DNA of 64,000 nt from contig JBDQNU010000008.1 in the NCBI GenBank assembly GCA_040261535.1, positions 8,322 to 72,321 of the forward strand. Direction: 5' to 3'. The stretch comes from Poseidonia sp. Lineage in GTDB: Archaea; Thermoplasmatota; Poseidoniia; Poseidoniales; Poseidoniaceae. Shown here piece after piece: positions 5,439-32,574 of this stretch (positions within the stretch are counted from its first letter, which is position 1; each line of letters opens with the position of its first letter). A program made the position numbers and the translations under genes. The notes beneath the pieces were generated by a model. That model had not been told where the DNA came from, made no database searches, and worked only from the letters and a program-made list of their open reading frames with translations.

Positions 5439-6248
5439 TCATGCTACCAATGTCGTGCCTCGGACCGGATGTCCAAGACAAGCACCAGCAACCCGCTCCT
5501 CGGTCTCACCGCTTACCAAGACGACTTGCACACCGTGATCGAGCACGCGGAATCCTCGTTCAACCTTCAACCCGATGCCGCCGGTAACGTCGATTTCTGA
5601 AGCATGGTCGCCTTCGAAGACTTGTTTTTTGTTCAGGGTTTTCAAGAGGTTTTGTTCCTTATCCGGTTGAGGGGGCTCCGCCAAAACGCCATCAACTCCG
5701 CCCATTGCGAAGACGAGGCGTTTCACTCGTGGTAATTCTATGGCGAGCCGAACGACCAGGTCGTCCCCGGAGAGAATACCAAACTCCGAGTCGCCATCGC
5801 ACTCAACAACATCCCCGTACGTCACGAGAACGATCCCCGGAGGGGCACCCTCGAACAACGAGAGATCACCGTCAAAATTGGGTCCCGTGTTGCGTGCCCA
5901 TTGATGGGGTGGAAGCGTCACGGCACTGATGTCTCGCTTGGTGAGGGCCTTCATCACGTGCTCGTTGAGGTCGAGCATATCTTGGCGCACTTCTTCGACG
6001 GCTTCGTCTTGGGTCAGTTCGCCTTCGATGCCCTGAGCATCGACACGCCCCTCCGCAAGGCGGTATTGTTTTGCTTTCAGATGGCCGAACGAACCTGCCC
6101 CGTGAACGAGGATCACGTCCATTTCATTGTCCAAGCACGCCTCGAGTTGTTCAGCAAGGTTGTCAAGAACGTCGGTACGGACCGTCTTCAACGCTGCCTT
6201 GTCGGTGATGAGGCCACCGCCCCACTTGATGACGACGCGTTCCCGCAT
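5439..6248 (-). CDS. ipk: isopentenyl phosphate kinase (amino-acid-kinase fold)
   Basis: ORF 5439..6365 trimmed to the Met giving MRERVVIKWGGGLITDK. The HGAGSFGH motif and an ILSGDD segment are present. Length is 269 aa. It sits next to the IDI-GGPPS gene. Confidence 0.8.
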   Translation of the reverse strand: MRERVVIKWGGGLITDKAALKTVRTDVLDNLAEQLEACLDNEMDVILVHGAGSFGHLKAKQYRLAEGRVDAQGIEGELTQDEAVEEVRQDMLDLNEHVMKALTKRDISAVTLPPHQWARNTGPNFDGDLSLFEGAPPGIVLVTYGDVVECDGDSEFGILSGDDLVVRLAIELPRVKRLVFAMGGVDGVLAEPPQPDKEQNLLKTLNKKQVFEGDHASEIDVTGGIGLKVERGFRVLDHGVQVVLVSGETEERVAGACLGHPVRGTTLVA

Positions 6249-6333
6249 GACCTTGCGAAGGAATCGGGCATGATGAGGATGCCGTTTTTTTGTGGAGCAA
6301 GGATTCATGAGGCATCGTGGTTCAGCGAGATGC

Positions 6334-6669
6334 ATGAGCGAAGAGCCAACCGTAGACGCTTTCATGCGTCATTTGCAAGTTTGCCTTGAAGAGGCACGAA
6401 CCATTGCAGACGGGAAAGAGCGACAGGAACGTTGCTGGCAGTTGGAATCCGCGCTTCAAGAAGCCATCATTTACAAAAATCGAATCGAGGAACTGCAACG
6501 TCATGGTCTCGATCCCGTTCGGCTTGTGGAGGCAGACGGTGTCAATACACCTGCGCCGGCTCCGAAAAAAGTAGAGGCTCTCATGTCCGGTCATGCCCAT
6601 TGCGGAACCTGCAGGGCTGTTTTGGAGCCCGATTTGGCGTTCTGCCCCGCTTGCGGTGCAGAAAAGTAA
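6334..6669 (+). CDS. hypothetical protein with C-terminal zinc ribbon
   Basis: The ORF ends HCGTCRAVLEPDLAFCPACGAEK (CxxC-x11-CxxC). A coiled-coil-like segment lies in the middle. The start (ATG 6334 versus 6292) is uncertain. No family recognised. Confidence 0.45.
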   Translation: MSEEPTVDAFMRHLQVCLEEARTIADGKERQERCWQLESALQEAIIYKNRIEELQRHGLDPVRLVEADGVNTPAPAPKKVEALMSGHAHCGTCRAVLEPDLAFCPACGAEK

Positions 6670-10663: not shown

Positions 10664-11689
10664 ATGGCGAAAGATGTGTTGTATATCGGAATTGACTTGG
10701 GAACCTTCCGTTCAGTGATGGTTTCTTCTGACAGCCACGAAGTGGAAGAATTGACCGTGATTGGAACGCCCAAGGACCCCATCGCACGGAACTTTTTGAA
10801 GCGCGATGTTCTCTTTGGGAACGAGGCGCTCAAAAACCGACTTGCTCTCAACCTTTTCCGGCCCTTGGAGCTCGGTGTCATCAAGGACACGCCAGAAGAC
10901 CGTGAATTCATTGCTCACTTCATCACCCATCTCATCGGTCTATCCGATCCTGAAGACTACGACCGCGTGGTCGCTGTTATCGGTGCGCCTGCCGAAGCAA
11001 GCCACGTTGACAAAACCGCCATCTTTGATGCAGCAGCGGGCTCTGTGAACTCCGCTATGATCATCTCCGAACCGTTTGCCGTCGCTTACGCTCTCGACAT
11101 GATCAACCATACGCTGGTCATTGACATCGGTGCAGGAACGACTGACCTTTGCCGCGTTTACGGTACCATCCCAGGACCCGGTGACCAAATGCACACCGGT
11201 CACGCCGGTGACTACGTCGACAACCAACTCATCAAAGAAATCCAATCCAAGTACAACGGCGCACAAATCACCAAGGACATGGCTCGACGCTGGAAGGAAG
11301 CCTACTCGTTCGTATCGACGGCAACTCCCGATGAACCTGTTCTCGTGGACTTTTCCATAGAAGGAAAGGCCATGACGCTCGACATCACGGATTGCATGCA
11401 GCGTGCATGTGAATCCATCGTCGACCCCATTGTGGAGAACGTCAAGAAACTCATTGCTGGTTCCAACCCCGAATACCACGATGAGTTCCGCAAGAACATG
11501 GTTCTCGCTGGTGGCGGTTCTTCCATCAAGGGCCTCGGTGCCCTCATCGAGCGCCGTCTCTCGGACATGGGCGACGTCAACGTTCACGTTGTCGACGATC
11601 CTGTTCGCTTGGGCGCCATGGGCGGTCTTCGCCTCGCCATGGAAGTTCCCGAAGAGATGTGGAAGAACCTCACTCTCGCTTCCCGTTGA
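10664..11689 (+). CDS. actin-like ATPase (MreB/MamK/Ta0583-like)
   Basis: Actin-fold motifs are present: phosphate-1 IGIDLGTFRS, connect SEPFAVAYAL, phosphate-2 LVIDIGAGTTDL, adenosine LAGGGSSIKGL. Length is 341 aa. Confidence 0.8.
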   Translation: MAKDVLYIGIDLGTFRSVMVSSDSHEVEELTVIGTPKDPIARNFLKRDVLFGNEALKNRLALNLFRPLELGVIKDTPEDREFIAHFITHLIGLSDPEDYDRVVAVIGAPAEASHVDKTAIFDAAAGSVNSAMIISEPFAVAYALDMINHTLVIDIGAGTTDLCRVYGTIPGPGDQMHTGHAGDYVDNQLIKEIQSKYNGAQITKDMARRWKEAYSFVSTATPDEPVLVDFSIEGKAMTLDITDCMQRACESIVDPIVENVKKLIAGSNPEYHDEFRKNMVLAGGGSSIKGLGALIERRLSDMGDVNVHVVDDPVRLGAMGGLRLAMEVPEEMWKNLTLASR

Positions 11690-16578: not shown

Positions 16579-19467
16579 ATGACGACGGAATGGCACAACC
16601 TTTCTCCGGAAGACAGCATCGTTCAGCAAGACAGTTCCATGGAAGGAATATCCATGCAGGAAGTCCTCGCTCGAACGCAACGGTACGGCTTGAACAAACT
16701 CGCTGAACCGGAGAAAACGCCAGCGTTTCTGCGGTTTATATCCCAATACAACGACCCGTTAAATTACCTCCTTATCGGGGCGGCTTTGGTGGCTTTGGCC
16801 ATCCACCCTGATCAGCCCGGAGATGCGATTTTCATATTTATCGTGCTCACCGCCAATGCGTTTTTTGGTTTCTGGCAAGAAGGACAAGCGGAGCAAGCAA
16901 TGGATTCCTTGAAACAAATGTCCGTCTCAACATGCGTGGTCATTCGCGGAACGTTCGAAAGCGAAATTGCAACTTCTGAATTGGTTCCAGGCGATATCGT
17001 TTGTTTGGAGCAAGGCCTTAATGTCCCAGCAGACGTACGCATGATTCGCTCACTGCAGTGCAAAATCGACGAATCAGCACTGACCGGCGAGTCCCTTACG
17101 GTTCGCAAAACGATTGAGTCCTTGCCTCCGGAAACGGTCCTTGCGGAACGAACCAACATGGCGTACATGGGCACGACCGTATCGTCCGGTCGAGGTTTAG
17201 GTTTGGTGATCGGCACAGGAATGAACACGGAATTGGGAAAAATCGCTCAAAATCTTGCCGAAAGCACCACGCCGAAAACTCCGCTTGAACTGAAACTTGA
17301 GAGCCTCGGTCGTTTTCTGGGTTTCATCGCCCTTGTCGTCGCCGTTCTGTTGGTCAGTCTGAACTTGATCGTTTCTTACGGTCGGCCCGGTGTTGACCTC
17401 AAGGAGGTCGCCGTGCAGCAATTCATTGTCGCCATCGCTATCTTTGTCGCGATTGTACCCGAAGGCCTTCCGATCATCTTGGTCATCACGCTCTCCCTTG
17501 GAATGCGCAACATGGCCCGTCACAAAGCCATCATCCGTCGCATGAAAGCGGTTGAAACGCTCGGCTCAACCACCGTTATCTGCTCCGACAAAACGGGAAC
17601 ACTGACGAAGAACCAGATGACGGTTCGCCAAATTTTCACCCTCGACGAAGACTTTGGCGTCTCAGGCGAGGGCTTCAAACCCGATGGAAATTTGGTTCGT
17701 CACGGCGTCGAACTCTCTGATGACGATCTTCAAGCCCACCAGTCCGATATGGGTTTTCGCTTGCTCAGTGCTTGTTTGTCACTCTGCCACAATTCAACCA
17801 TTGCCAAAACAGATGGGCTCTGGCAAGCCATCGGTGACCCCACGGATTCGGCCTGCGCCGTTGCTGGTTGGAAAATCAACGGAGATGTGAAGAAATTCGC
17901 GCATCGCCACCCGAGGATCAATGAATTCTTTTTCGATTCAAACCGGAAACGCATGAGCGTTCTCCATGAATACCAAGGAAACCGTTGGGTGTTCTCCAAG
18001 GGCAGCGTAGAAGGCTACGATGAGTTGATGACCTCGAAAATCGTCAACAACGAAGTGGTGCCCTTGACCGATGACGACCGTGCCTCGATTCGGCAAATGA
18101 ACCAATCCATGGGCGGGAAAGCCATGCGTGTCATCGGTTTGTTTGCTCGTCCTTTCGGTAAAGACGAAGATACGAACGACGTGAAAACGGTTGAATCGAA
18201 TTTGGCTTTCCTTGGGTTGATCGGCATCATGGACCCGCCTCGCCCTGAAGTGAAAGACGCGATTGCAACCTGTCAACGAGCCGGCATCAAGGTGAAAATG
18301 ATCACCGGTGACCAGCAAATGACGGCTGCCGCTATCGGCAAAGAATTGGATATTGAATCCGGCACACTGGGTGCACTCGACGGGCAAAGCCTTACCGACA
18401 TGTCGGACGAAGAGCTGGTCAATGTATCGGCCAACGTTTCAATTTACGCTCGCGTAACCCCGGACCAAAAAATGCGCATTGTTTCATCGCTTCAAGAGCA
18501 AGGCGAAATCGTTGCCATGACCGGTGACGGTGTGAACGATGCACCTGCACTTTCAGGCGCAAACATTGGTATCGCCATGGGCATATCCGGTACGGACGTT
18601 GCGAAAGACGCTGCTGACATGGTTTTGCAGGATGATAATTTTGCAAACATTGTTCATGCCGTGGAGGAAGGTCGCAAAATCTACCAGAACATTCGCAATT
18701 TTGTTCGCTACCAGGTCTCTACCAACGTGGCCGCCGTCTTGCTCCTGATCTTGGCCACCATTCTTTTCGGGCCCGAATCCATCCCGTTAACAGCAACCCA
18801 GATTCTTGTGATCAACATCTTGATGGACGGCCCTCCAGCGGTTGCGTTGGGGGTTGAAAAGAAACACGGGAACGTCATGAACCGACCGCCGAGACCGGTT
18901 GACGAAAATCTACCAAACGGAAGAGACATCTCCTTGATTTTCTACCTCGGCATCGTCATGGTCACGGGCACCCTCGCCATCTTTTACCTCGCTGGCGGAG
19001 GTTTGGCAGAATGCGAGATTCTGCCGACAGAAACCGCTACCACCGCCTTTGATGTCGCTGCCTGCAACGCAGGGGATGTTGAGGAATTGAACAAATGGCA
19101 GGTTTACGCGGACGGTCATTTTGCTCATGCGCAAACGATGACCTTCTCGGTGTTCATCGTCTTCCAATTGTTCAACGTTCTCAATTGCCGATCAAACGAC
19201 CAATCCGTTTTCGAGTTGGGTTTGTTTTCAAACCGAGCCATTAACCTCGCCTTGCTGATTTCAGGTGGCTTGTTGTTCTTCTTCGTCCAACTGGCGGATG
19301 CTTCCATCCCGCTTGTTGGTATTCAGGTGGGCAACTTGCTCTCGACGACCACCCTTTCTTCTAGCGATTGGACCGTCGTGGTGCTCGTCGCCTCCGCCGT
19401 CTTCATCATCGAGGAATTTCGAAAACTGCTCGTAAAATCGAAATTTTTTGCCGTTCGAACCTCATGA
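16579..19467 (+). CDS. cation-transporting P-type ATPase, type IIA-like (probably Ca2+)
   Basis: TGES, VPEGLP, CSDKTGTLT, MITGD and TGDGVNDAPAL motifs are present. Length is 962 aa. Confidence 0.85.
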   Translation: MTTEWHNLSPEDSIVQQDSSMEGISMQEVLARTQRYGLNKLAEPEKTPAFLRFISQYNDPLNYLLIGAALVALAIHPDQPGDAIFIFIVLTANAFFGFWQEGQAEQAMDSLKQMSVSTCVVIRGTFESEIATSELVPGDIVCLEQGLNVPADVRMIRSLQCKIDESALTGESLTVRKTIESLPPETVLAERTNMAYMGTTVSSGRGLGLVIGTGMNTELGKIAQNLAESTTPKTPLELKLESLGRFLGFIALVVAVLLVSLNLIVSYGRPGVDLKEVAVQQFIVAIAIFVAIVPEGLPIILVITLSLGMRNMARHKAIIRRMKAVETLGSTTVICSDKTGTLTKNQMTVRQIFTLDEDFGVSGEGFKPDGNLVRHGVELSDDDLQAHQSDMGFRLLSACLSLCHNSTIAKTDGLWQAIGDPTDSACAVAGWKINGDVKKFAHRHPRINEFFFDSNRKRMSVLHEYQGNRWVFSKGSVEGYDELMTSKIVNNEVVPLTDDDRASIRQMNQSMGGKAMRVIGLFARPFGKDEDTNDVKTVESNLAFLGLIGIMDPPRPEVKDAIATCQRAGIKVKMITGDQQMTAAAIGKELDIESGTLGALDGQSLTDMSDEELVNVSANVSIYARVTPDQKMRIVSSLQEQGEIVAMTGDGVNDAPALSGANIGIAMGISGTDVAKDAADMVLQDDNFANIVHAVEEGRKIYQNIRNFVRYQVSTNVAAVLLLILATILFGPESIPLTATQILVINILMDGPPAVALGVEKKHGNVMNRPPRPVDENLPNGRDISLIFYLGIVMVTGTLAIFYLAGGGLAECEILPTETATTAFDVAACNAGDVEELNKWQVYADGHFAHAQTMTFSVFIVFQLFNVLNCRSNDQSVFELGLFSNRAINLALLISGGLLFFFVQLADASIPLVGIQVGNLLSTTTLSSSDWTVVVLVASAVFIIEEFRKLLVKSKFFAVRTS

Positions 19468-19512
19468 TGGTTCTAAGCACATCTTCATGAACACCGGCTT
19501 GCTCAGAAAGCC

Positions 19513-20721
19513 ATGGAAGCCTTGAGGGTGCCTCAACCGCTCGCAGGGGAATCCCCTGAGTGGTTGTCAAACCTTGATGCCCTCCTGGAGAGACAGGGTG
19601 GCTGGTCAACGGCGTTGCATGGCATCATCACCAAACTCAAATTCAACACTCCCCTTACGGTTGAGGATGGTCTGACACTTTACCACCATCCGAACCTCTC
19701 CGAGGTTGGTGCCCTCGCCAATGCGGTTCGCACAGCGCGATTCGGACGGCAAGCCTTCTTCAATTCAAACGTGCACATCAATCAGACCAACGTGTGTGTG
19801 CTGGCGTGCCGATTTTGCGCTTTTCGTCGTGGGCCAAAGGCCAAGGATGCGTACGCAATGAGCGTGACTGAATATGTAGAGGACCTGGGGAAATATGCCC
19901 ACGCCGTGGATGAAGTGCATTCCGTGGGCGGACTTCACCCGGAGTGGGATGTTTCTCACTACGAACAGATGTTTCGTGAAACCCGTTCCGCCTATCCTCA
20001 TGTATCGATCAAAGCCCTCACGGCGGTTGAGATCAAACATCTTGGCCAACGCTCCCAAATCACCACCAAAACCGTTCTCCAGCGGCTAAAAGATGCAGGC
20101 CTCACATCGTTGCCTGGTGGAGGAGCAGAAATCCTCGATGACGATGTGCGAGCGATCATCTGCAACGGGAAGGAAAGCTCGGAAGAATACCTTCGCATTC
20201 ATCAAGAAGCCCACGAGGTTGGTCTGCCGTCGAACTGCACGATGCTCTTTGGGACCGTTGAAACGCTTGAACAGCGTCTTCAGCACATGATTTCGCTTCG
20301 GGAACTTCAAGCAAAAACGTCTGGATTCCAATGCTTTGTGCCCTACCCTTTCCTGCCCGATCACACCCGTCTCCCCGAAGCCCAACTCGCATCCGGGACC
20401 GAAATCCTGCGAACGATCGCCGTTTCTCGTCTTCTCCTCAACAACATTCCCCACATCAAAGCCTACCGAATGAACATCGGCGATCACGTTGCGGAACTCG
20501 CCCTACAATACGGAGCGGATGATATCGACGGCACCGTGCAAAAAGAGTCGATCATGCATCTTGCCGGTTCTACTGCACCGCTCGACCATGACCGTTCCCG
20601 TCTTGCACGCCTCATCCGTGATGCAGGTTGTGAACCTGTGCAACGGAACACCGTTTACTCAACCTTCACGCCTTACACGGCACCTGAACCAACCCACCGC
20701 CGCCTTCGGATGGCACAATGA
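19513..20721 (+). CDS. radical SAM enzyme of the futalosine pathway (MqnC/MqnE family; the two cannot be distinguished by eye)
   Basis: The NQTNVCVLACRFCAF Cys cluster is present, with CofH/MqnC/MqnE-like length and layout. It lies directly upstream of mqnA and mqnD. Confidence 0.75.
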   Translation: MEALRVPQPLAGESPEWLSNLDALLERQGGWSTALHGIITKLKFNTPLTVEDGLTLYHHPNLSEVGALANAVRTARFGRQAFFNSNVHINQTNVCVLACRFCAFRRGPKAKDAYAMSVTEYVEDLGKYAHAVDEVHSVGGLHPEWDVSHYEQMFRETRSAYPHVSIKALTAVEIKHLGQRSQITTKTVLQRLKDAGLTSLPGGGAEILDDDVRAIICNGKESSEEYLRIHQEAHEVGLPSNCTMLFGTVETLEQRLQHMISLRELQAKTSGFQCFVPYPFLPDHTRLPEAQLASGTEILRTIAVSRLLLNNIPHIKAYRMNIGDHVAELALQYGADDIDGTVQKESIMHLAGSTAPLDHDRSRLARLIRDAGCEPVQRNTVYSTFTPYTAPEPTHRRLRMAQ

Positions 20722-20730
20722 GGTGGTACG

Positions 20731-21531
20731 ATGGAACAACCCACTTGGCTCTCGACCATCGGACGGGTGGCGTTCATCAACTGCGACCCCCTTTTCCACG
20801 GGTTGTCCCCCCGGTGGAATGTCCTTGCAGCTCCACCGTCTTGGTTGACCGGGCACGTGCTGCGAAAGGATTGCATTCTGGCGCCCATTCCCGCCGCTGA
20901 TTACGCAAAACATGCCGATGAACTCCTGTTGTTGCCGGACATCGGCATCGGAAGTCAAGGTGAGGTCGGGAGCGTCCTTTTGTTTGGAGCCATTTCCCTC
21001 GATGCGATGAAAACGATTGCTTTACCCTCCGATTCAGCAACGTCCGTGGCCTTGTTGAAGCACCTCGTTTCAAAACGCGAAATGGACATGAATTACGTTG
21101 ATACGGGTCCCGATTACGAGGCCATGATGTCCCTTGCTGACGGCGCTCTCTTGATCGGCGACCGAGCATTGGAAGCAGCGAGGGAGTTTCCTGAAATGGT
21201 CCAATTGGACCTCGGAAAGGCCTGGATGGAACTGGAGGGTCTGCCGATGATTTTCGGTGTCTTCGTCGCTCGCAGAGATACCCCTGTTGAGGCCCTCCAA
21301 CAGGCCCATCTTGCCTTGGTTGAGAATTTGGCTGCGTTTGAGAACGGTGGTCAACGACGAGAGGAGGTTATCGCCGGGTCAATGGAAAAATCCGGTCTTG
21401 CTTACGAACGTCTCAACCAATACTACGGCGAGGTATTCAATCGGCTTGACGACCATCATTTGGAAGGATTGTTTCGGTTTCTTTCGGAAGCCTGTAAGAT
21501 GGGGACATCCCCAGAGTTTGCACCGATTTGA
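20731..21531 (+). CDS. mqnA: chorismate dehydratase MqnA-like (periplasmic-binding-protein fold)
   Basis: IGRVAFINCDPLFHGL...IPAADY...ALLIGDRAL matches my recollection of the MqnA (DUF178) pattern. The operon context is mqnC/E and mqnD. Confidence 0.7.
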   Translation: MEQPTWLSTIGRVAFINCDPLFHGLSPRWNVLAAPPSWLTGHVLRKDCILAPIPAADYAKHADELLLLPDIGIGSQGEVGSVLLFGAISLDAMKTIALPSDSATSVALLKHLVSKREMDMNYVDTGPDYEAMMSLADGALLIGDRALEAAREFPEMVQLDLGKAWMELEGLPMIFGVFVARRDTPVEALQQAHLALVENLAAFENGGQRREEVIAGSMEKSGLAYERLNQYYGEVFNRLDDHHLEGLFRFLSEACKMGTSPEFAPI

Positions 21532-21590
21532 CCGGGCTTGTTTCAATTTTACAACGGTTGGTTCTTGAAGGGGCTGCGTTTGGAAGAGGC

Positions 21591-22469
21591 ATGGTGGTTG
21601 AACTCCCTCTTGACCTGGAAGGCAACAAAATCGTACGAATTGGCCACAGTCCCGACCCGGATGACGCGTTCATGTTTCACGCCATGACCACCGGCGCCTT
21701 CCCGACGCCCGGGTACACCTTCGTTCACGAACTGCAAGATATCGAAACCCTCAATCATCGAGCGATGAATCAGGATCTCGAGGTTTCTGCTGTTTCCATT
21801 CACGCCTATCCGGACATCGCCGAACATTACGCATTGATGAACTGCGGAGCTTCAATGGGCGAGGGCTACGGCCCCATGGTGGTGTGCAAGCAAGGGGTCA
21901 CTGAGGCCGAGGCAAAGGCGGGTGTCATCGCTGTCCCGGGCTTGAAAACCAGCGCCTACCTCGGACTCCGGTTGGCGTGGGGAGACGTTAACGTGGCCGT
22001 TGTCCCCTTTGACGAAATCATCCCACGAATCCTCGACGGAACCTACATGAGCGGACTCATCATTCACGAAGGTCAACTCACCTATGTGGACCACGACTTG
22101 GATGTTCTGGTCGATCTCGGAAAGTGGTGGAACGGCAGAACAGAAAATTGGCCGATGCCACTTGGTGGAAACGTGGTTCGCCGGGATTTGGGTGAGGACG
22201 TAATGCAGGACATCACCAAATACACCAAAATGAGCATCGAATATGCTCTCAAATCCCCCGACGAAGCACTCGAGTTCGCCAAAGCCTGGGGAAGGGGTAT
22301 TGATGATGAAACCAATCAAGCCTTTGTCAGCATGTACGTCAACGACCGGACCATTGACTACCGAGATGAAGGGCGGAAATCCATCCAGCTCTTCATCAAG
22401 GAAGGCCAACAGATTGGCCTCATCCGAGAGGATTTTGACACGGATTCCATGGTCTTCATTGGCGCTTGA
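21591..22469 (+). CDS. mqnD: 1,4-dihydroxy-6-naphthoate synthase MqnD
   Basis: IGHSPDPDDAFMFHAM, LQDIETLN and VSAVSIHAY are signatures. The start was trimmed from 21528 to the Met at 21591, and either is possible. Confidence 0.8.
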   Translation: MVVELPLDLEGNKIVRIGHSPDPDDAFMFHAMTTGAFPTPGYTFVHELQDIETLNHRAMNQDLEVSAVSIHAYPDIAEHYALMNCGASMGEGYGPMVVCKQGVTEAEAKAGVIAVPGLKTSAYLGLRLAWGDVNVAVVPFDEIIPRILDGTYMSGLIIHEGQLTYVDHDLDVLVDLGKWWNGRTENWPMPLGGNVVRRDLGEDVMQDITKYTKMSIEYALKSPDEALEFAKAWGRGIDDETNQAFVSMYVNDRTIDYRDEGRKSIQLFIKEGQQIGLIREDFDTDSMVFIGA

Positions 22470-22478
22470 GGGATTTTC

Positions 22479-22967
22479 GTGGACGGTGACTCACCTCGCC
22501 CCCAAGTCAGTCAATACGGGTCGGTTGACCCGGCCCCTCCTGAACAAAGCGGCGAACTCCAGTCTTGGACCGGAACCCTGTGCGATGAACAACAACCGAT
22601 GTTCCAACGCATGCGCGCCGTGTTTGCATTACGCAATCACAGCAGCGATGAAGCCTGTCTTGCCCTTTGCAAGGGCTTTAACAGCGAGAGCGCCCTGCTT
22701 CGCCATGAAATTGCCTATGTTCTTGGTCAAATGCAAAACCCGGTTGCCCTTCCAACGTTGATTCAACGCCTCGAGGACGAACACGAACACGTCATGGTGC
22801 GCCATGAAGCGGCCGAGGCGATGGGTGCCATCGGTGATCGTTCGGTGATTCCTGTTCTCCAACGTTTCACCTCCGACTCCCTCCCCGAGGTTGCAGAATC
22901 GTGCGTTGTTGCACTCGATCTGCTGGCTTGGGTGCAGCGAGCGGAATTTGCTGAAACCGAGTGGTAA
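22479..22967 (+). CDS. HEAT-repeat protein resembling one lobe (half) of deoxyhypusine hydroxylase
   Basis: There are two His-Glu HEAT motifs, ALLRHEIAYVLGQMQ and VMVRHEAAEAMGAIG, plus MFQRMRAVFALRN and an N-terminal YGSVDPAPP. GTG start lies 9 nt after the mqnD stop. Length is 162 aa. Confidence 0.6.
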   Translation: MDGDSPRPQVSQYGSVDPAPPEQSGELQSWTGTLCDEQQPMFQRMRAVFALRNHSSDEACLALCKGFNSESALLRHEIAYVLGQMQNPVALPTLIQRLEDEHEHVMVRHEAAEAMGAIGDRSVIPVLQRFTSDSLPEVAESCVVALDLLAWVQRAEFAETEW

Positions 22968-23014
22968 GCGACCTCAAGTTCAAAGACTAGGATGGATTGC
23001 CAAGAGATGGAAGG

Positions 23015-23230
23015 ATGTCCATGCCTCACGACCACATTCAACTTGCCCAAGCTCCAAACGGCGAACTTGGCCCACGCTGCCACAATTGCGGCGTGAGATT
23101 GACGTTTGGCAACGCCATGGTCGTTGACAAGTACTACATGTGCTGGGAGCACTATGTTGAAGCGACCGGAGCTGACACCTCCACCGAAGTCGCTCAAGCC
23201 GACGAACGCTTCTGGATGAAGCAGGAATAG
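23015..23230 (+). CDS. hypothetical small protein with a putative zinc finger
   Basis: The 71-aa product contains CHNCG-x19-CWEH. It ends 53 nt upstream of priS on the same strand. An alternative TTG start is at 22997. Confidence 0.35.
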   Translation: MSMPHDHIQLAQAPNGELGPRCHNCGVRLTFGNAMVVDKYYMCWEHYVEATGADTSTEVAQADERFWMKQE

Positions 23231-23283
23231 AACGGTCGCCTTCAAGAACCCTCAACCATCAGTTACGGTCGGGGACGACGGCC

Positions 23284-24480
23284 GTGAGTGGATGGGCGAA
23301 GGTAGCGCACCGGTTTGGCCAATATTATCGGCACGCCTCGTTGTGGTCACCCCCTCGCATTCGAACGCGAGAATGGATGTTCATCCCGTTTGGTGGCGCT
23401 CCTCCTCTCCGACACAAGTCGTTTTCTGATGTTGGGCAGGTACAGCGCTTTCTTTCTGAAAGGGCCATGCACTCGTGTTTCTACTCAACGGCATATTGGC
23501 GGCGTCCGCATGAGTTGAAAATGGCTGATAAACTCTGGCAGGGAGCCGATTTGATTTTTGATTTGGACGGCGACCACCTCCCCGGCGTGACGGACAAAGA
23601 TTTCCCTGGTATGCTTGAGGTCATTCAGGACCAAGCATGGACGCTTTGGAACGATTTCTTGGAGCCCGAGTTCGGCTTTCAAGAAAAGCACCTCCAGGTG
23701 ACGTTTTCTGGACATCGAGGATTCCATTTACATTACCGAGACCCGCGCCTGTTTCACTTGGATTCGGAGGCCCGCAGAGAACTGGTATCGCACATTCGTG
23801 GCGAAGGCGTTGATGTGCAAGGCGGTTTGGCCCGGTACCACGATGCTGATGCACGAGGTTGGACCGAGCGCATTCGGAACGGCATGGACGACATGATCGT
23901 CACATTGCGCAACATTCACCGAGGTACCGAAGACGGACACGGTCAACTGGCACGTCTCGAATCGGCGCTTCAATCCCTCCAAGACCGCGAAGGCGTCACT
24001 TCACAACGCTCGGCGTCCGCCATCAAACGTCTTGCAGAATTGACCGACCACGATGGGCGAATACAACGCCTGAAAGACGGGCGTTTTGATGTCCTCGGGA
24101 ACTACCAAGGCTTGTTTCTGAACCTCTTGAAGGCGGATGCTTCGGTCGTTCTCGGCAATGCAGGGGAAACCGATGAAGTGGTCACCATCGATGTCCGCCG
24201 TCAAATCCGGTGGCCAACGTCCCTCCACGGCAAATCGGGTATGCGCGTGAGTGAATTCCCCCTCGCAAGACTCGACCCCGATGGAGGCCAAGCCTACAAT
24301 CCGCTGCAGGAGGCCTTCGTCCTCGGTATGGACGACGCACACGAGATGGAATGGACGGTCGATGATGCGATTGCACAATTTGGAGAACACCGGCTTGAGA
24401 GCCAAAAAGGAGAGCGATTTTCCATCCATGAATCCGGTGCAACCTTCCTCGTTCTGAAGGGATGGGCGGCCTTCGTCTGA
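23284..24480 (+). CDS. priS: DNA primase small (catalytic) subunit PriS
   Basis: REWMFIPFGG...RHKSF, FYSTAYW, GADLIFDLDGDH and SGHRGFHL are AEP primase motifs. Apparent GTG start. Confidence 0.85.
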   Translation: MSGWAKVAHRFGQYYRHASLWSPPRIRTREWMFIPFGGAPPLRHKSFSDVGQVQRFLSERAMHSCFYSTAYWRRPHELKMADKLWQGADLIFDLDGDHLPGVTDKDFPGMLEVIQDQAWTLWNDFLEPEFGFQEKHLQVTFSGHRGFHLHYRDPRLFHLDSEARRELVSHIRGEGVDVQGGLARYHDADARGWTERIRNGMDDMIVTLRNIHRGTEDGHGQLARLESALQSLQDREGVTSQRSASAIKRLAELTDHDGRIQRLKDGRFDVLGNYQGLFLNLLKADASVVLGNAGETDEVVTIDVRRQIRWPTSLHGKSGMRVSEFPLARLDPDGGQAYNPLQEAFVLGMDDAHEMEWTVDDAIAQFGEHRLESQKGERFSIHESGATFLVLKGWAAFV

Positions 24481-24495
24481 GGCCGTCCGCAGTGC

Positions 24496-24525
24496 ATGCA
24501 ATACCCTTTCCATCAATTGCATTTT
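24496..24525 (+). terminator. hairpin plus T-run after priS
   Basis: atgcaat-(13 nt)-attgcat is followed by ttt. It begins 16 nt after the priS stop. Confidence 0.3.
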
Positions 24526-24575
24526 GAGGTAAGGTTCAAGGGTGGTTTCTTCCCCCTTGGGACGAGGTGAGGGTC

Positions 24576-25571
24576 ATGGGTCTGCGACGAGGGAAGAAAA
24601 GCAAGGCCGCAGACACCCCTCTCCCGATGCCGAATCTACCCCCTCCCGGGGACCTACCGGCACCTCTCCCACTTCCGCCAGGTGGTGCCCTTCCTCCATT
24701 GCCCGGTGCTCTGCCCGCTCCCGTTCCTGCCCCAGTTCCTGCACCGCTGCCAGCACCCGTTGAGGCCAATCCTCTCCCTCCCGCACCGCTTCCAGAGGCC
24801 CCCGTGCCCGTTAACGACCCAAACACCACGCTCTCCGGGCTGGCTGAAGAGAAAGGGTACAACGAACTCTGGGCCAAACGCTCCGAAAAACCGTTGCAAC
24901 AAATCTACGGACACATCGACCGAATCAGCAACAAGGAAGCCGGCTCGTTGTTGGACCGGTATGCAGACCGCTTTGGACACTCGCTTGACCGAGAGATCAT
25001 CGTTATGCGGAAAGCAGCGGTTGAAGAAAAAGTTGCTGAGATACGTGATGCCCCGACGGTTGAACTCATTGAGGATGAACCTGGCGAAGGCATAACGGAA
25101 CTTGAGCGGGTTGAAAATGAACTCCGTGCACTCAAACCGCTTTACCAGGAGGCCAAAGCTCTCGGCGACAAAGAGACGCTCGCCGAACTCACCCCGGCTC
25201 TCCAAACCCTCATGGCTCAACGGAAGGCGCTGAAGTCTCAGGGCGAAAGCGGTCCCGCCGAGCCAACAACGGCCGTTGCTGCTTCGGACGAAGATGACAT
25301 GTTCGTTCAGTTCGTCGCCATCGTTGATGATTTGCTGGGTGAGCATCTGCCCGAAGAGATCGTCAATGCATTCGTCGCTAGCCCTGAATTTGACACCTAC
25401 AGAGAGGTGCTCGCAAACCCAGCTGGTGTTGACGAATCTACTCGTTCGACCTTTTGCAACATGGTCGATGACCAACTTGGAAACATGTTCCCTGAATCCA
25501 TTGAGGCGTTTATCGCTTCACCTGAATTTGAGATTTATCGCCAAGTAGGCGAGCAGTACAAGGATGCGTGA
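24576..25571 (+). CDS. hypothetical protein: Pro-rich N-terminus, coiled-coil centre, duplicated C-terminal SPEF motif
   Basis: The N-terminus is MGLRRGKKSK followed by about 80 aa of (L/V)P(A/P) repeats. The C-terminus has two copies of VDDxLGxxxPExIxAFxASPEFxxYRxV. No family recognised. Confidence 0.6.
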   Translation: MGLRRGKKSKAADTPLPMPNLPPPGDLPAPLPLPPGGALPPLPGALPAPVPAPVPAPLPAPVEANPLPPAPLPEAPVPVNDPNTTLSGLAEEKGYNELWAKRSEKPLQQIYGHIDRISNKEAGSLLDRYADRFGHSLDREIIVMRKAAVEEKVAEIRDAPTVELIEDEPGEGITELERVENELRALKPLYQEAKALGDKETLAELTPALQTLMAQRKALKSQGESGPAEPTTAVAASDEDDMFVQFVAIVDDLLGEHLPEEIVNAFVASPEFDTYREVLANPAGVDESTRSTFCNMVDDQLGNMFPESIEAFIASPEFEIYRQVGEQYKDA

Positions 25572-25576
25572 AAACC

Positions 25577-26395
25577 ATGGGACTACTTGACAAAGCCGGT
25601 ACCACCACCGAAGAAAAAAAGAAACCCGCACCAAAGGCGGTGGCTGTCGCTGCTAAACCAGCAGAACCAGCAAAGGCGAAACCCGTGAAGGTGGCCAAAG
25701 CCGCAAAAGCGACCAAAGCGAAGGCGCCGAAAGCCCGGCCAATGGGTCTTGCCGACGACTATGAACTCGCTTCAAACATGAACCGGCGTATTTCTTGGCT
25801 TGTCAATTTTGCAATCAACTTCGGCGTCTTGTTCGCAGCCCTCTTCATCGCGGCCTCTGACACGGGCATCATCACCACGATTCTCTTTGGCGCTAGCTTT
25901 GCGATCATCATCCTCAACGCCATCTTCATCCCGATGAAGTTTAGCCGAAATCTCGGACAATTTGTTTCGCGGACCAAATTTATTCGAGGAGACGGGTCAA
26001 ACCCCCTCTTTTTGCACGGCATCATGGCCAACACTTCTGGATTGTTGGCTCTTATCGGTTTGATTTTCGTCGGCACCGAATTCCAAAACTTGTCTGAAAA
26101 ACAGACCTCTTCCATCGTTTTCTTTTCGATGGGCACCGTTTTCATCATCGTTTGGTTCATCGATCGGTTTCTGCGAAACGGTAGCGAAATGGGTCAAGGC
26201 ATGTACGATTTGATGTTCCGAGCCTACCTCGTCAAATACATCCCGCCTGAGGATGAGAAGGCGACGGGAATTTGGGCACGTCTCGAGAACATGGGTAATT
26301 TCGGCGACCAAATGATGAAGCGTCAAGAAGAGCGAAAAGCCAAGAAGGAACAAGCCAAGGCCGAAAAGGAAGAAACAACGCCTCAAGAAGACTGA
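25577..26395 (+). CDS. hypothetical membrane protein with a Lys/Ala/Pro-rich N-terminal tail and a Lys/Glu-rich C-terminal tail
   Basis: The N-terminus is MGLLDKAG followed by KKKPAPKAVAVAAKPAEPAKAKPVKVAKAAKATKAKAPKA. About 4 hydrophobic helices follow, then a charged tail. It abuts the previous gene (an alternative GTG 25568 overlaps that gene's stop). Confidence 0.6.
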   Translation: MGLLDKAGTTTEEKKKPAPKAVAVAAKPAEPAKAKPVKVAKAAKATKAKAPKARPMGLADDYELASNMNRRISWLVNFAINFGVLFAALFIAASDTGIITTILFGASFAIIILNAIFIPMKFSRNLGQFVSRTKFIRGDGSNPLFLHGIMANTSGLLALIGLIFVGTEFQNLSEKQTSSIVFFSMGTVFIIVWFIDRFLRNGSEMGQGMYDLMFRAYLVKYIPPEDEKATGIWARLENMGNFGDQMMKRQEERKAKKEQAKAEKEETTPQED

Positions 26396-30901: not shown

Positions 30902-31531
30902 TCATTCCTCGAGACGGTCCCGCACGGCTTGCATGATTTCTCGTGAAATCACCTTCACTTCGTTCTTCAGCGTCAACAAGTCTGACCTGAGTTCACTCCC
31001 CAATTCTTTGGGAAGGGAGCCGAGGTTGATTTCGACATTGAAAACGGCGCCTTTTGCTGCAGCGCTGGCGAGGAGACCGGCCACTCCGACATCGGAGACA
31101 GCGTTGCCGTTTCCTCGTTTTGCGAGTTCAGGGAGGTGTTTCATCAACGCCAACGCCGACCGTGCGGTTTCGTAGGGAATTTCCGCAGCCACCAAAGTGG
31201 CTTTCCGAATGGCATCTCGGCGTTCTGTTTTTTCTGCATCGGTGGACTTCGGCAGTTTGAAACTGCCCATAACGCCGTCAAAGGCATCGCTGTCGGCTTG
31301 CGCCAATTCACCAGCTCTGTTCAAGAGTGGAATGGCTACCGTTTGGGCCGCTTCAGCAACGGCCCACCCGTCGGCCCATTTTTCGTTTCCAAGGGTCAAA
31401 TCGCAGACCATAACCGTCAGGGATGCGGCTTGTCCGAGCGCAACGGCAGCAGCGGTTCCTCCACCTGGTGTGGGCGAGGAGGAGGCCAACGCTGATTGGA
31501 AGTCACGCAATGTCATGTCCATCCAATTCAA
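30902..31531 (-). CDS. formimidoyltetrahydrofolate cyclodeaminase
   Basis: FQSALASSSPTPGGGTAAAVALGQAASL is the typical FTCD C-domain N-terminus. Length is about 209 aa. The start overlaps the stop of the formimidoyltransferase gene. Confidence 0.85.
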   Translation of the reverse strand: MNWMDMTLRDFQSALASSSPTPGGGTAAAVALGQAASLTVMVCDLTLGNEKWADGWAVAEAAQTVAIPLLNRAGELAQADSDAFDGVMGSFKLPKSTDAEKTERRDAIRKATLVAAEIPYETARSALALMKHLPELAKRGNGNAVSDVGVAGLLASAAAKGAVFNVEINLGSLPKELGSELRSDLLTLKNEVKVISREIMQAVRDRLEE

Positions 31532-32574
31532 TTGCCCACCTCCGATTCAATGGCCCATTCAATAATATGTTCACGCGGTGAAAACCGGTGATGAGCGTTC
31601 AGACCAAGTCCGATGACAGCTGCATTAACGAGCGCCTCGTCGTTTTCCGCTTGAGGTTCAAAGAATCGCCCTGCCTCAAGCATGGCTTGGAGTGGCACCA
31701 ATCCAACGATTTCGCTCCCGCACAAGGCAACGCCATGATCGCCGGCGATGCTTTCGCATGTTTTGAAGGCAAGATGAAGGGGGCAAGCATCCACATCGAG
31801 CAGATTCATGGATACTTGAGATATGCCCAATTCCTCAAGAGGGACGCCCATGCCTTGGACGTTTGGCAGCATGCCCTTTGCTCGGATTTTTTCCCCGTTT
31901 TCACTTTTCAAGAGGCGGCCGCTGCTGCGAACCAATGACCCCACCATCTTGGCGACCGTCGCATCACGCTCCTCAACGTTGACGTTGTAGGCAACAAGAA
32001 TCGGTCGTGCTCCGACGGTAATGGCTCCCGAACGCCTTGTCGCTTCGTTCCATTTCTGGCCCCCAGCATCGGGGAATCGTGTCGATGAACCATGTACGGT
32101 TTCTCCTCCCGACAACCTTGCCTCCAAACCTTCGTACTCCCCTTTCCGCAAGGTCGAGAGCAATGTTCGCTCATCGCCCGCCGCAGCCTTGCCGTAAAGG
32201 AACAAGGGGATGTCATGGAGGGCAGCAATCCTGTCTGCCGTTTGTCTGGCGAGGTCTGCACACGCATCGAGACCAATGCCACGAAGAGGTACAAACGGGC
32301 ACACATCAACAGCTCCCATTCGTGGATGTTCACCGGTGTGTTGGGACATGTCGATAAGGTCAATGCTTGCGTTGATGAGCGCCACGGCTCCTTCCACTAC
32401 AGCATCGGGGGCGCCAGCAAACGTGATGACCGTTCGATGGTAATCGTGGTCGGGTTCAACTCCTAAAACCGTGCAACCCGGTACAGCGCGGACCGCATCG
32501 ACGATTTGCTCAATCTTGTCGAGGTCCCGACCCTCCGAGATGTTTGGGACGCATTCAACCAGGGGGGAATTCAT
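31528..32574 (-). CDS. glutamate formimidoyltransferase
   Basis: LVECVPNISEGRD, DYHRTVITF and HPRMGAVDVCPFVPL are signatures of the FTCD N-terminal domain. Confidence 0.85.
   Translation of the reverse strand: MNSPLVECVPNISEGRDLDKIEQIVDAVRAVPGCTVLGVEPDHDYHRTVITFAGAPDAVVEGAVALINASIDLIDMSQHTGEHPRMGAVDVCPFVPLRGIGLDACADLARQTADRIAALHDIPLFLYGKAAAGDERTLLSTLRKGEYEGLEARLSGGETVHGSSTRFPDAGGQKWNEATRRSGAITVGARPILVAYNVNVEERDATVAKMVGSLVRSSGRLLKSENGEKIRAKGMLPNVQGMGVPLEELGISQVSMNLLDVDACPLHLAFKTCESIAGDHGVALCGSEIVGLVPLQAMLEAGRFFEPQAENDEALVNAAVIGLGLNAHHRFSPREHIIEWAIESEVGN

What the first reader, a model, noticed from the sequence alone, without database searches (positions are those of the whole stretch)
22479..22967. 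Single-lobe deoxyhypusine-hydroxylase (DOHH)-like HEAT protein, placed as the last gene of a futalosine operon
The 162-aa ORF has exactly two His-Glu HEAT motifs (ALLRHEIAYVLGQMQ and VMVRHEAAEAMGAIG). These are preceded by MFQRMRAVFALRN and an N-terminal YGSVDPAPP.

From memory, these are the hallmark elements of eukaryotic DOHH. That enzyme is about 300 aa and is built as a dyad of two 4-HEAT lobes. Its four HE motifs ligate a diiron centre. An SVDPAPP-type segment is the inter-lobe linker, so this ORF looks like the linker plus the C-terminal lobe only.

A one-lobe protein could build the metal site only as a homodimer, which would be a pre-duplication form of the enzyme. DOHH is generally described as eukaryote-specific. 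No hydroxylase has been assigned for the hypusine found in some archaea.

A second oddity is the position. The GTG start is 9 nt after the mqnD stop. So the protein could instead be a diiron hydroxylase acting on a quinone intermediate.
Basis: partly seen in the sequence, partly recalled or inferred. Interest (0 to 1): 0.8.

Follow-up and report, generated by a model that had tools for sequence, protein, structure and literature searches.

The report
Half-size deoxyhypusine hydroxylase in marine archaea
Marine Group II archaea (Poseidoniales) carry a conserved 160-aa gene that is a close relative of just one of the two lobes of the eukaryotic enzyme that finishes the hypusine modification of translation factor 5A, an enzyme the literature says archaea lack.

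Summary
Window 22479-22967 (+) encodes a 162-aa, four-HEAT-repeat protein. It matches human deoxyhypusine hydroxylase (DOHH, 4d4z) at E=1.3e-66 and aligns to each lobe; the C-lobe alignment includes the SVDPAPP linker. Generic HEAT/PBS-lyase proteins score far lower.

It is neither a truncation nor a misassembly. Over 100 protein clusters of 159-164 aa and 84 loci from distinct Poseidoniales assemblies encode the same single-lobe protein. No second lobe lies next to it. Both His-Glu pairs, 33 residues apart as in each eukaryotic lobe, are invariant, as are the substrate Gly and nearly all of the tail motif.

The most likely function is a homodimeric, O2-dependent diiron hydroxylase that converts deoxyhypusine to hypusine on aIF5A. 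This is inferred; dimerisation, iron and activity are untested.

The link to mqnD is mostly conserved gene order. One lineage inverts mqnD and half-DOHH together as a cassette. Another has lost mqnD from the locus but keeps half-DOHH, a small Zn-ribbon-like ORF and PriS.

Whether the protein is a pre-duplication relic or an ancient truncation is unresolved. Weak rooting leans towards kinship with the C-lobe.

Papers up to 2021 state that archaea have no DOHH; only JGI's automatic annotation names these proteins. This is a new variant of a known kind.

The parts
22479..22967 (+). Single-lobe DOHH homologue ('half-DOHH'): 162 aa, GTG start, four HEAT hairpins preceded by a roughly 27-aa N-terminal tail.
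   Evidence: ORF and sequence. Human DOHH 4d4z at E=1.3e-66. hhalign against eukaryotic DOHH at E=4.3e-67. AF2 model with pLDDT 89.8 and 8 helices. Best PDB structural match is 4d4z, TM 0.83.
22521..22541 (+). Tail motif S15-V-D-P-A-P-P21, homologous to the inter-lobe linker of eukaryotic DOHH.
   Evidence: It aligns to the human linker SVDPAPP. S15, D17, P18, A19 and P20 are invariant in 78 archaeal sequences. YGSVDPAPP occurs in 101 of 116 sequences. pLDDT is 56-65 in the monomer model, against 82-91 for the same motif in a two-lobe control model.
22704..22709 (+). First His-Glu motif, H76-E77. It is equivalent to human H56/E57 and H207/E208 (Fe ligand His plus substrate-binding Glu).
   Evidence: Alignment. 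Invariant in the family. Residue roles taken from PMC9117371.
22725..22727 (+). G83, equivalent to the human G63/G214 position in the HExxYxLGQ motif (deoxyhypusine side-chain binding).
   Evidence: Alignment. Invariant in the archaeal, N-lobe and C-lobe groups. Role taken from PMC9117371, which prints the N-lobe residue as G65.
22803..22808 (+). Second His-Glu motif, H109-E110. It is equivalent to human H89/E90 and H240/E241 (both Fe ligands). It lies 33 residues after the first motif.
   Evidence: The 33-residue spacing is found in all 114 single-lobe proteins and in 47 of 49 eukaryotic lobes of each kind. Invariant.
22468..22472 (+). Shine-Dalgarno-like GAGGG, overlapping the mqnD stop codon and 6 nt before the GTG start. 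This suggests translational coupling to mqnD.
   Evidence: Read directly from the sequence. In the divergent lineage L081 the gap is 2 nt, with GGTGA upstream.
21528..22469 (+). MqnD (1,4-dihydroxy-6-naphthoate synthase), the immediate upstream neighbour.
   Evidence: Pfam VitK2_biosynth at 1.6e-62. PDB TTHA1568/3a3u at 171 bits and AF1704 at 220 bits.
20731..21531 (+). MqnA (chorismate dehydratase).
   Evidence: Pfam VitK2_biosynth. PDB chorismate dehydratase 7ahr at E=2.8e-26.
19513..20721 (+). Radical-SAM MqnE/MqnC-type enzyme.
   Evidence: NCBIfam MqnE at 415 bits (cut-off 434) and MqnC at 346 bits. Pfam Radical_SAM plus CofH_C.
22997..23230 (+). Small conserved ORF (77 aa) with a CxxC...CxxH/C pattern, Zn-ribbon-like. 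It is the immediate downstream neighbour and has no family assignment.
   Evidence: ORF. No significant family match. Present next to half-DOHH or PriS in every locus that extends far enough.
23284..24480 (+). Archaeal/eukaryotic-type DNA primase small subunit (PriS), next on the same strand.
   Evidence: Pfam DNA_primase_S at 2.7e-15. Syntenic in every locus that extends far enough.

Best explanation
The ORF encodes a genuine relative of deoxyhypusine hydroxylase that consists of one four-HEAT lobe plus an N-terminal tail homologous to the eukaryotic inter-lobe linker.

Each chain carries one 2-His/1-Glu iron-ligand set (H76, H109, E110) together with the substrate-contacting Glu (E77) and Gly (G83). 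I infer that two chains associate around a true two-fold axis. This would reproduce the pseudo-two-fold dyad of eukaryotic DOHH and assemble a non-haem diiron site at the interface, with each tail packing on the partner subunit.

The dimer would then use O2 to hydroxylate the deoxyhypusine side chain that deoxyhypusine synthase installs on aIF5A. These aerobic surface-ocean archaea would therefore carry true hypusine.

Shown here: the homology, the single-lobe architecture, the conservation of catalytic residues and tail, vertical inheritance across Poseidoniales, and the fold.

Inferred: dimerisation, iron binding, the aIF5A substrate and the activity.
For: - Sequence similarity at orthologue level: human DOHH at E=1.3e-66, 110 bits against the N-lobe and 118 bits against the C-lobe. 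hhalign against a 46-sequence eukaryotic DOHH alignment gives E=4.3e-67. Core identity to eukaryotic lobes is 43-46%, about as high as eukaryotic lobes share with each other (N-N 42%, C-C 49%).
- H76, E77, H109, E110 and G83 are invariant in 78 archaeal sequences. The two HE motifs are 33 residues apart in all 114 single-lobe proteins, the same spacing as in eukaryotic lobes. In human DOHH these positions are the Fe ligands and the deoxyhypusine-binding residues (PMC9117371).
- The AF2 model has pLDDT 89.8 and four HEAT hairpins. Its best PDB structural match is 4d4z, with TM 0.83 and 46% identity; the next matches are near 0.66.
- The single-lobe length is conserved in more than 100 clusters and 84 loci. 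No second lobe lies adjacent, and each of the 80 genome-scan loci comes from a different assembly.
- The protein is conserved at a housekeeping level. Identity to the window in divergent lineages is 55-58%, compared with MetRS 56%, PriS 47-49% and MqnD 60%.
- The tail motif is nearly invariant although it links nothing here. It is poorly ordered in the monomer model (pLDDT 56-65) but ordered in a two-lobe control model (82-91). This fits packing on a partner lobe.
- The host lineage lives in oxygen-rich surface ocean water (PMC10783094, abstract listed). DHS is reported in all sequenced archaeal genomes (PMC5178350).
Against: - No dimer model could be made.
- Iron binding and activity are untested.
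- DHS and aIF5A were not located in this genome. They are absent from the 64-kb window, and their presence rests on the literature statement that DHS is universal in archaea.
- Early amino-acid analyses found mainly deoxyhypusine, not hypusine, in the Euryarchaeota examined, including Thermoplasmales. No Poseidoniales member has been examined.
- A divergent second-lobe paralogue elsewhere in the genome, which would give a heterodimer, is not excluded.
- The gene is tightly coupled to mqnD in most lineages.
Confidence: 0.6

Rival explanations
1. The protein is a diiron or iron hydroxylase that works with the futalosine pathway. It would modify a naphthoate or menaquinone intermediate, or a product of MqnD, rather than aIF5A.
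For: The gene starts 9 nt after mqnD, with an SD-like sequence overlapping the mqnD stop codon. MqnD lies immediately upstream in every listed Poseidoniales genome locus that extends far enough, except L080 (the printout for L036-L043 was cut). In the divergent L081-L084 lineage, mqnD and half-DOHH (2-nt gap) were inverted together as a two-gene cassette, which separated them from mqnA/rSAM and from PriS.
Against: - The whole 11-kb block, from the P-type ATPase to the alpha/beta hydrolase, is collinear in these genomes, so adjacency is not specific evidence.
- In L080 mqnD is absent from the locus, but half-DOHH, the small ORF and PriS are kept.
- The established futalosine route to menaquinone (MqnA, E, B, C, D, then prenylation, decarboxylation and methylation) has no O2-dependent hydroxylation step. 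This is from my own knowledge of the pathway.
- The residues that bind the deoxyhypusine side chain in DOHH are invariant here.
- Identity to eukaryotic DOHH is as high as among the eukaryotic orthologues themselves.
Confidence: 0.08
2. The chemistry is DOHH-like but the assembly differs. Either the single lobe acts as a monomer with a mononuclear 2-His-1-carboxylate iron site, or it pairs with an unrecognised divergent second-lobe paralogue as a heterodimer.
For: Each lobe alone supplies a 2-His/1-Glu set: H76, H109 and E110. My searches listed only the best 120-150 hits and used query-specific peptide patterns, so a paralogue at about 40% identity would have been missed.
Against: No second DOHH-like lobe exists in the 64-kb window or in any of the 84 loci. 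Each of the 80 genome-scan loci comes from a different assembly. No cosubstrate-binding features of mononuclear hydroxylases are present; this is an inference from the pure HEAT fold. The archaeal lobe resembles both eukaryotic lobes about equally, as expected if it plays both roles.
Confidence: 0.12
3. The protein is a non-catalytic HEAT-repeat protein. It could be a scaffold, a PBS-lyase-like protein, or a binder of aIF5A or DHS that has lost hydroxylase activity.
For: Pfam assigns only generic HEAT_2/HEAT_PBS/HEAT families, and NCBI annotates relatives as 'HEAT repeat domain-containing protein'. Half of the canonical enzyme is missing.
Against: All metal-ligand and substrate residues are invariant over a lineage whose housekeeping proteins have diverged to about 50% identity. 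PBS-lyase family models score 27 bits or less against cut-offs of 300 or more. Generic HEAT arrays have no HE motifs at the corresponding positions in their best-matching segments and score 28 bits or less per four-repeat segment.
Confidence: 0.07

Closest known systems
Eukaryotic deoxyhypusine hydroxylase (human DOHH, PDB 4D4Z; yeast Lia1; EC 1.14.99.29)
   Same: HEAT-hairpin fold. HE motifs with 33-residue spacing. Conserved context (LL[RK]HE.AYVLGQ and MVRHEAAEA.GAIG). SVDPAPP segment. 43-54% identity. Best sequence and structure match.
   Different: There is one four-HEAT lobe of about 160 aa instead of a fused dyad of two lobes of about 300 aa. It has two HE motifs per chain instead of four. 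The linker motif is a free N-terminal tail. The host is an archaeon. Activity and metal content are unknown.
PBS-lyase-type HEAT proteins (CpcE/CpcF, NblB, E. coli YibA, MTH187) and consensus-designed alphaRep proteins
   Same: The same short HEAT_PBS repeat type (Pfam PF03130/PF13646) and a similar solenoid fold, TM about 0.6-0.67.
   Different: They lack the conserved His-Glu metal motifs. Scores are much lower: NblB 27 bits, CpcE 23 bits, and about 33 bits or less per stretch for the alphaRep alignments shown. They have no DOHH linker motif.
Archaeal hypusination as currently described (DHS only; the hydroxylase is unknown; Sulfolobus contains hypusine, Haloferax contains deoxyhypusine)
   Same: It concerns the same pathway and the same unanswered question of which enzyme hydroxylates deoxyhypusine in archaea.
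   Different: The literature reports no DOHH orthologue in any archaeon. This family was seen here only in Poseidoniales, so it does not explain hypusine in Crenarchaeota.

Membership tests
Deoxyhypusine hydroxylase (DOHH, EC 1.14.99.29) | All-alpha HEAT-repeat fold with four helical hairpins per lobe. | tested here: met
   Pfam HEAT_2 at 1.3e-22 and HEAT_PBS at 1.5e-15. The AF2 model has 8 helices and pLDDT 89.8. Foldseek best hit is 4d4z at TM 0.83.
Deoxyhypusine hydroxylase (DOHH, EC 1.14.99.29) | Strictly conserved His-Glu motifs at the Fe-ligand and substrate positions of each lobe (human H56-E57 and H89-E90; H207-E208 and H240-E241) plus the conserved Gly. | tested here: met
   H76-E77, H109-E110 and G83 align to these positions. 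They are invariant in 78 sequences and the 33-residue spacing holds in all 114. Roles are from PMC9117371.
Deoxyhypusine hydroxylase (DOHH, EC 1.14.99.29) | Eight HEAT repeats and four HE motifs in one polypeptide, arranged as a symmetrical dyad of two lobes. | tested here: not met
   The protein is 162 aa with four repeats and two HE motifs. The same holds in more than 100 clusters and 84 loci, with no adjacent second lobe.
Deoxyhypusine hydroxylase (DOHH, EC 1.14.99.29) | Sequence similarity to DOHH clearly above that to other HEAT proteins. | tested here: met
   227 bits to human DOHH, against 27 bits or less to NblB/CpcE models and 28 bits or less per four-repeat segment of generic HEAT arrays. 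hhalign E=4.3e-67.
Deoxyhypusine hydroxylase (DOHH, EC 1.14.99.29) | Conserved inter-lobe linker segment (SVDPAPP). | tested here: met
   It is present as an N-terminal tail and is nearly invariant in the archaeal family.
Deoxyhypusine hydroxylase (DOHH, EC 1.14.99.29) | Non-haem diiron centre (2 Fe per active unit) that forms a peroxo-diiron(III) species. | not testable with these tools
   This needs purified protein, and a homodimer model could not be run.
Deoxyhypusine hydroxylase (DOHH, EC 1.14.99.29) | Hydroxylates deoxyhypusine on a/eIF5A. | not testable with these tools
   A biochemical assay or mass spectrometry is required.
Deoxyhypusine hydroxylase (DOHH, EC 1.14.99.29) | Co-occurs with deoxyhypusine synthase and IF5A in the same genome. 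| not tested
   Neither gene is in the 64-kb window (motif scan; Pfam annotation). [quoted passage not shown]
PBS-lyase HEAT-like proteins (CpcE/F, NblB) | Reaches the curated family model score. | tested here: not met
   NblB scores 26.9 bits (cut-off 300), CpcE 22.8 (cut-off 330) and CpeY 19.1 (cut-off 600).
Futalosine (Mqn) pathway component | Gene neighbourhood with mqn genes that persists through rearrangements. | tested here: inconclusive
   MqnD is adjacent in every listed genome locus that extends far enough, except L080, and the two genes are kept together as an inverted two-gene cassette in L081-L084. In L080 mqnD is lost from the locus and half-DOHH stays with the small ORF and PriS. 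The surrounding block is collinear in any case.
Futalosine (Mqn) pathway component | Catalyses a step that the pathway requires. | not tested
   The described pathway has no O2-dependent hydroxylation step. This is established knowledge, not tested here.

The most novel reading that the evidence does not exclude
The Poseidoniales protein descends from the single-lobe, homodimeric ancestor of DOHH, that is, the state before the duplication and fusion that produced the eukaryotic enzyme. On this reading the hydroxylation step of hypusine synthesis arose in, or was exchanged with, a Thermoplasmatota-like archaeal lineage before the last eukaryotic common ancestor. The archaeal enzyme would still build its diiron site across a symmetric dimer interface.
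Probability: 0.2. Interest if true: 0.85.

Novelty: new variant of a known kind. Interest (0 to 1): 0.72.

Why it matters
Reviews and primary papers state that archaea have deoxyhypusine synthase but no DOHH, so the origin of archaeal hypusine is unexplained. This family is a clear DOHH relative in one of the most abundant planktonic archaeal orders.

It makes three things directly testable:

- whether these archaea carry hypusine rather than deoxyhypusine;
- whether a diiron oxygenase site can be built by a symmetric homodimer of four-HEAT lobes, which would be a natural minimal version of the enzyme;
- how the pseudo-symmetric eukaryotic enzyme arose, by duplication and fusion of such a lobe, or whether the archaeal gene is instead an ancient truncation or transfer.

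It does not explain hypusine in Crenarchaeota such as Sulfolobus, where no homologue is reported.

Tried and rejected
- Truncation or misassembly. Rejected: the same 159-164-aa protein appears in more than 100 clusters and 84 loci, flanked by intact genes.
- Eukaryotic contamination. Rejected: the gene is embedded in archaeal synteny (MqnD, PriS, MetRS, aEF-2), and its GC content of 56.6% is close to the window's 54%.
- A generic HEAT/PBS-lyase protein. Rejected on scores and on invariance of the HE motifs.
- A tandem (ORF+ORF) pseudo-dimer for AlphaFold.
- Outgroup rooting with four-repeat segments of giant HEAT arrays. It gave only weak and probably biased results: A+C 33%, N+C 2%, and the N-lobes not monophyletic. 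The unrooted NJ tree gives three clades with 27-60% bootstrap support.
- An aIF5A/DHS motif scan of the window found nothing. I could not search whole Poseidoniales genomes for these genes or for a paralogue. The single genome-collection scan used query-specific peptide patterns, and the protein searches list only the best 120-150 hits, so distribution outside Poseidoniales is not settled.
- Park et al. 2006 (PNAS) and Kim et al. 2006 (JBC) are not held in the library.
- An Rfam scan of 19000-26000 found no RNA family.
Full report
**Observation**

Window 22479-22967 (+) is a 162-aa ORF with a GTG start. It begins 9 nt after the TGA stop codon of the upstream gene, and a GAGGG Shine-Dalgarno-like sequence overlaps that stop. 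A six-frame scan of the 64-kb window finds no other DOHH-type motif in a real gene. Rfam finds no RNA family between 19000 and 26000.

**Is it DOHH-like beyond generic HEAT similarity?**

Yes.

- phmmer against PDB sequences puts human deoxyhypusine hydroxylase (4d4z) first at E=1.3e-66. There are two aligned stretches. Query 28-154 aligns to the N-lobe (110 bits). Query 7-149 aligns to the linker plus C-lobe (118 bits), with YGSVDPAPP matching the human linker YLSVDPAPP.
- The next PDB hits are consensus-designed alphaRep proteins. Their totals are summed over many repeats, and the stretches shown score about 33 bits or less each.
- Pfam sees only the generic families HEAT_2, HEAT_PBS and HEAT. 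NCBIfam gives NblB 27 bits and CpcE 23 bits against cut-offs of 300 or more.
- Four-repeat segments of giant HEAT arrays score 28 bits or less. The best-matching ones carry no His-Glu motif at the DOHH positions.
- Profile-profile comparison of the archaeal family (A1) with 46 eukaryotic DOHHs (A3) gives probability 100% and E=4.3e-67 over 155 columns.
- An AlphaFold2 model has pLDDT 89.8, pTM 0.84 and eight helices, that is four HEAT hairpins. Its best structural match in the PDB is 4d4z, with TM 0.83 and 46% identity; all other matches are at or below about 0.67.

**Whose gene is it, and is the single lobe real?**

The large protein search returns 2512 hits at E<=1e-10. The roughly 100 best clusters are almost all 159-164 aa and 64-97% identical to the query. 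NCBI names them 'HEAT repeat domain-containing protein' from Poseidonia sp., Candidatus Poseidoniales or Thermoplasmatota. JGI's automatic annotation names them 'deoxyhypusine monooxygenase'.

The species-representative genome scan gives 80 loci from 80 different assemblies. All are Poseidoniales/MGII MAGs, including the MG-II chromosome CM001443.1, apart from two evidently mis-binned contigs. The window therefore comes from a Poseidonia-like Marine Group II archaeon.

A separate clade has 177 members of 159 aa (the P0244/P0271 cluster) and is 55% identical to the query. It sits in marine contigs whose housekeeping proteins are 48-66% identical to the window's.

In all 84 loci the gene is flanked by intact, unrelated genes, and no second lobe is adjacent. 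Two-lobe proteins of about 300 aa appear only at 43-54% identity. Every one that carries a name is eukaryotic, for example Catenaria, Trichinella and EukProt transcripts. Among the best 150 representatives at 50% identity, only one is single-lobe. Truncation and misassembly are excluded.

**Conservation**

- All 114 single-lobe proteins have exactly two HE motifs 33 residues apart. This is the spacing found in 47 of 49 eukaryotic N-lobes and in 47 of 49 C-lobes.
- In a 78-sequence alignment, H76, E77, H109, E110, G83, R108, E113 and the tail residues S15, D17, P18, A19 and P20 are invariant.
- By alignment, H76/H109/E110 correspond to human H56/H89/E90 and to H207/H240/E241, which anchor the two irons. 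E77 and G83 correspond to E57/E208 and G63/G214, which bind the deoxyhypusine side chain (roles from PMC9117371).
- Between the window and the two most divergent lineages the protein is 55-58% identical. This is similar to MetRS (56%) and MqnD (60%) and higher than PriS (47-49%). The gene has therefore been inherited vertically under strong constraint since the lineages split.

**Relationship to the two eukaryotic lobes**

- On the core (residues 28-155) the archaeal lobe is 46% identical to C-lobes and 43% to N-lobes. N- and C-lobes are only 39% identical to each other. N-N identity is 42% and C-C identity is 49%.
- In 96% of 49 eukaryotic proteins the archaeal lobe is closer to the C-lobe than that protein's own N-lobe is. 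In 80% it is closer to the N-lobe than the protein's own C-lobe is.
- Diagnostic consensus positions split evenly: A=C≠N at 3 positions, A=N≠C at 4, and N=C≠A at 3.
- An unrooted NJ tree gives three clades (archaeal, N, C) with bootstrap support of 60%, 27% and 30%. The archaeal stem is the shortest.
- Rooting with generic HEAT segments recovers A+C in 33% of replicates, against N+C in 2%. The N-lobes are then not monophyletic, so long-branch attraction is likely.
- Apart from this weak rooting, the linker motif is the only clear character the archaeal protein shares specifically with the C-lobe.

I conclude that the origin is unresolved. The protein could be a pre-duplication relic or an ancient loss of the N-lobe or transfer. 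The weak evidence leans towards kinship with the C-lobe.

**Genomic context**

The upstream genes are an MqnE/MqnC-type radical-SAM enzyme, MqnA (chorismate dehydratase) and MqnD. Downstream on the same strand are a 77-aa CxxC...CxxH Zn-ribbon-like ORF (29-nt gap) and PriS (53-nt gap). I saw no T-rich terminator after the half-DOHH stop codon.

The order from the P-type ATPase through rSAM, MqnA, MqnD, half-DOHH, the small ORF and PriS onwards is collinear in every listed locus that spans it (the printout for L036-L043 was cut). It reflects general synteny. Three rearrangements are informative.

1. In the CM001443.1-like lineages a 741-aa opposite-strand gene separates mqnA from mqnD.
2. In L081-L084, mqnD and half-DOHH (2-nt gap) are inverted in place as a cassette.
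3. In L080, mqnD is absent from the locus, and half-DOHH, the small ORF and PriS follow a divergently oriented gene.

The gene is therefore usually co-transcribed with mqnD, but the link is not universal. The futalosine route also needs no O2-dependent hydroxylation (my own knowledge of the pathway).

**Mechanism proposed**

One lobe supplies only half of the DOHH ligand set. The simplest way to rebuild the known active site is a C2 homodimer that mimics the eukaryotic pseudo-dyad.

Three observations are consistent with this.

- The lobe resembles both eukaryotic lobes about equally.
- The tail, which is homologous to the linker, is nearly invariant although it connects nothing here.
- The tail is poorly ordered in the monomer model (pLDDT 56-65), while the same motif is ordered (82-91) in a control model of the two-lobe Catenaria DOHH.

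The expected substrate is deoxyhypusinated aIF5A. DHS is reported in all sequenced archaeal genomes (PMC5178350), and MGII archaea live in oxygen-rich surface water (PMC10783094, abstract listed). Dimerisation, iron content and activity are inferences.

**Comparison with what is known**

The accessible literature states repeatedly that no DOHH orthologue exists in archaea. The sources are PMC5178350 (2016), PMC6105217 (2018), PMC8153317 (2021) and PMC3306375 (2012). Searches that combined DOHH or deoxyhypusine with Poseidoniales, MGII, Asgard, 'archaeal DOHH' or 'DOHH-like' turned up no description of such a protein in the papers listed or read. Only JGI's automatic annotation labels it.

Early analyses found mostly deoxyhypusine in Euryarchaeota and hypusine in Crenarchaeota. 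This family was seen only in Poseidoniales, so it does not solve the crenarchaeal puzzle.

**Verdict**

This is a real, conserved, single-lobe DOHH homologue. It meets the fold, motif, similarity and linker criteria of DOHH but fails the two-lobe criterion. I therefore file it as a new variant of a known kind, not as a canonical member. Confidence that it works as a homodimeric deoxyhypusine hydroxylase is about 0.6.

Noticed in passing
window 22997-23230 (+): A 77-aa ORF with a CxxC...CxxH/C pattern (Zn-ribbon-like) and no Pfam or NCBIfam family. It lies between half-DOHH and PriS in every locus that extends far enough, and stays next to PriS even where mqnD and half-DOHH are inverted. It could be a primase accessory protein or another small Zn protein.
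   Followed up: partly
window 24567-25571 (+): A 334-aa ORF with no family match. Its first roughly 90 residues are extremely proline-rich (…PLPMPNLPPPGDLPAPLPLPPGGALPPLPGALPAPVPAPVPAPLPAP…). This is the type of sequence whose translation depends on a/eIF5A, and it lies three genes downstream of half-DOHH. The placement is probably coincidental.
   Followed up: no
L027 (NZEQ01000006.1, 'Verrucomicrobiales bacterium ARS100') and L072 (CAXRAI010000015.1, 'Salinimicrobium sp.'): These contigs, filed under bacterial MAGs, carry the complete archaeal block from the P-type ATPase through Mqn, half-DOHH and PriS. They are most likely mis-binned Poseidoniales contigs.
   Followed up: partly
L058 2728-4953 (-); L080 3360-5849 (-): A 741/829-aa opposite-strand gene that by eye looks like a repeat-rich extracellular domain with a membrane anchor and a Lys/Arg-rich tail. 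It is inserted between mqnA and mqnD in several lineages, and lies directly upstream of half-DOHH in L080, where it replaces mqnD at that position.
   Followed up: partly
window 10664-11689 (+): An MreB/Salactin/Volactin-like archaeal actin homologue (Pfam MreB_Mbl at 3.9e-26, Salactin at 2e-13).
   Followed up: no
window 3633-5384 (-): A fusion of a NUDIX domain with a polyprenyl synthetase in a single 583-aa ORF. It sits next to an amino-acid-kinase-family gene (5439-6365), which may be an isopentenyl phosphate kinase.
   Followed up: no
window 30902-32574 (-) and 41337-44917 (+): Histidine-degradation genes: formiminotransferase and cyclodeaminase as two separate ORFs, plus urocanase and histidine ammonia-lyase. 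An X-Pro dipeptidyl peptidase lies between them. This fits a protein- and peptide-degrading lifestyle.
   Followed up: no
window 19513-20721 (+): The radical-SAM Mqn enzyme scores just below the NCBIfam cut-off for MqnE (415 bits against 434) and also matches MqnC (346 bits). Only one such gene is in the cluster, so whether it is MqnE or MqnC is ambiguous.
   Followed up: no
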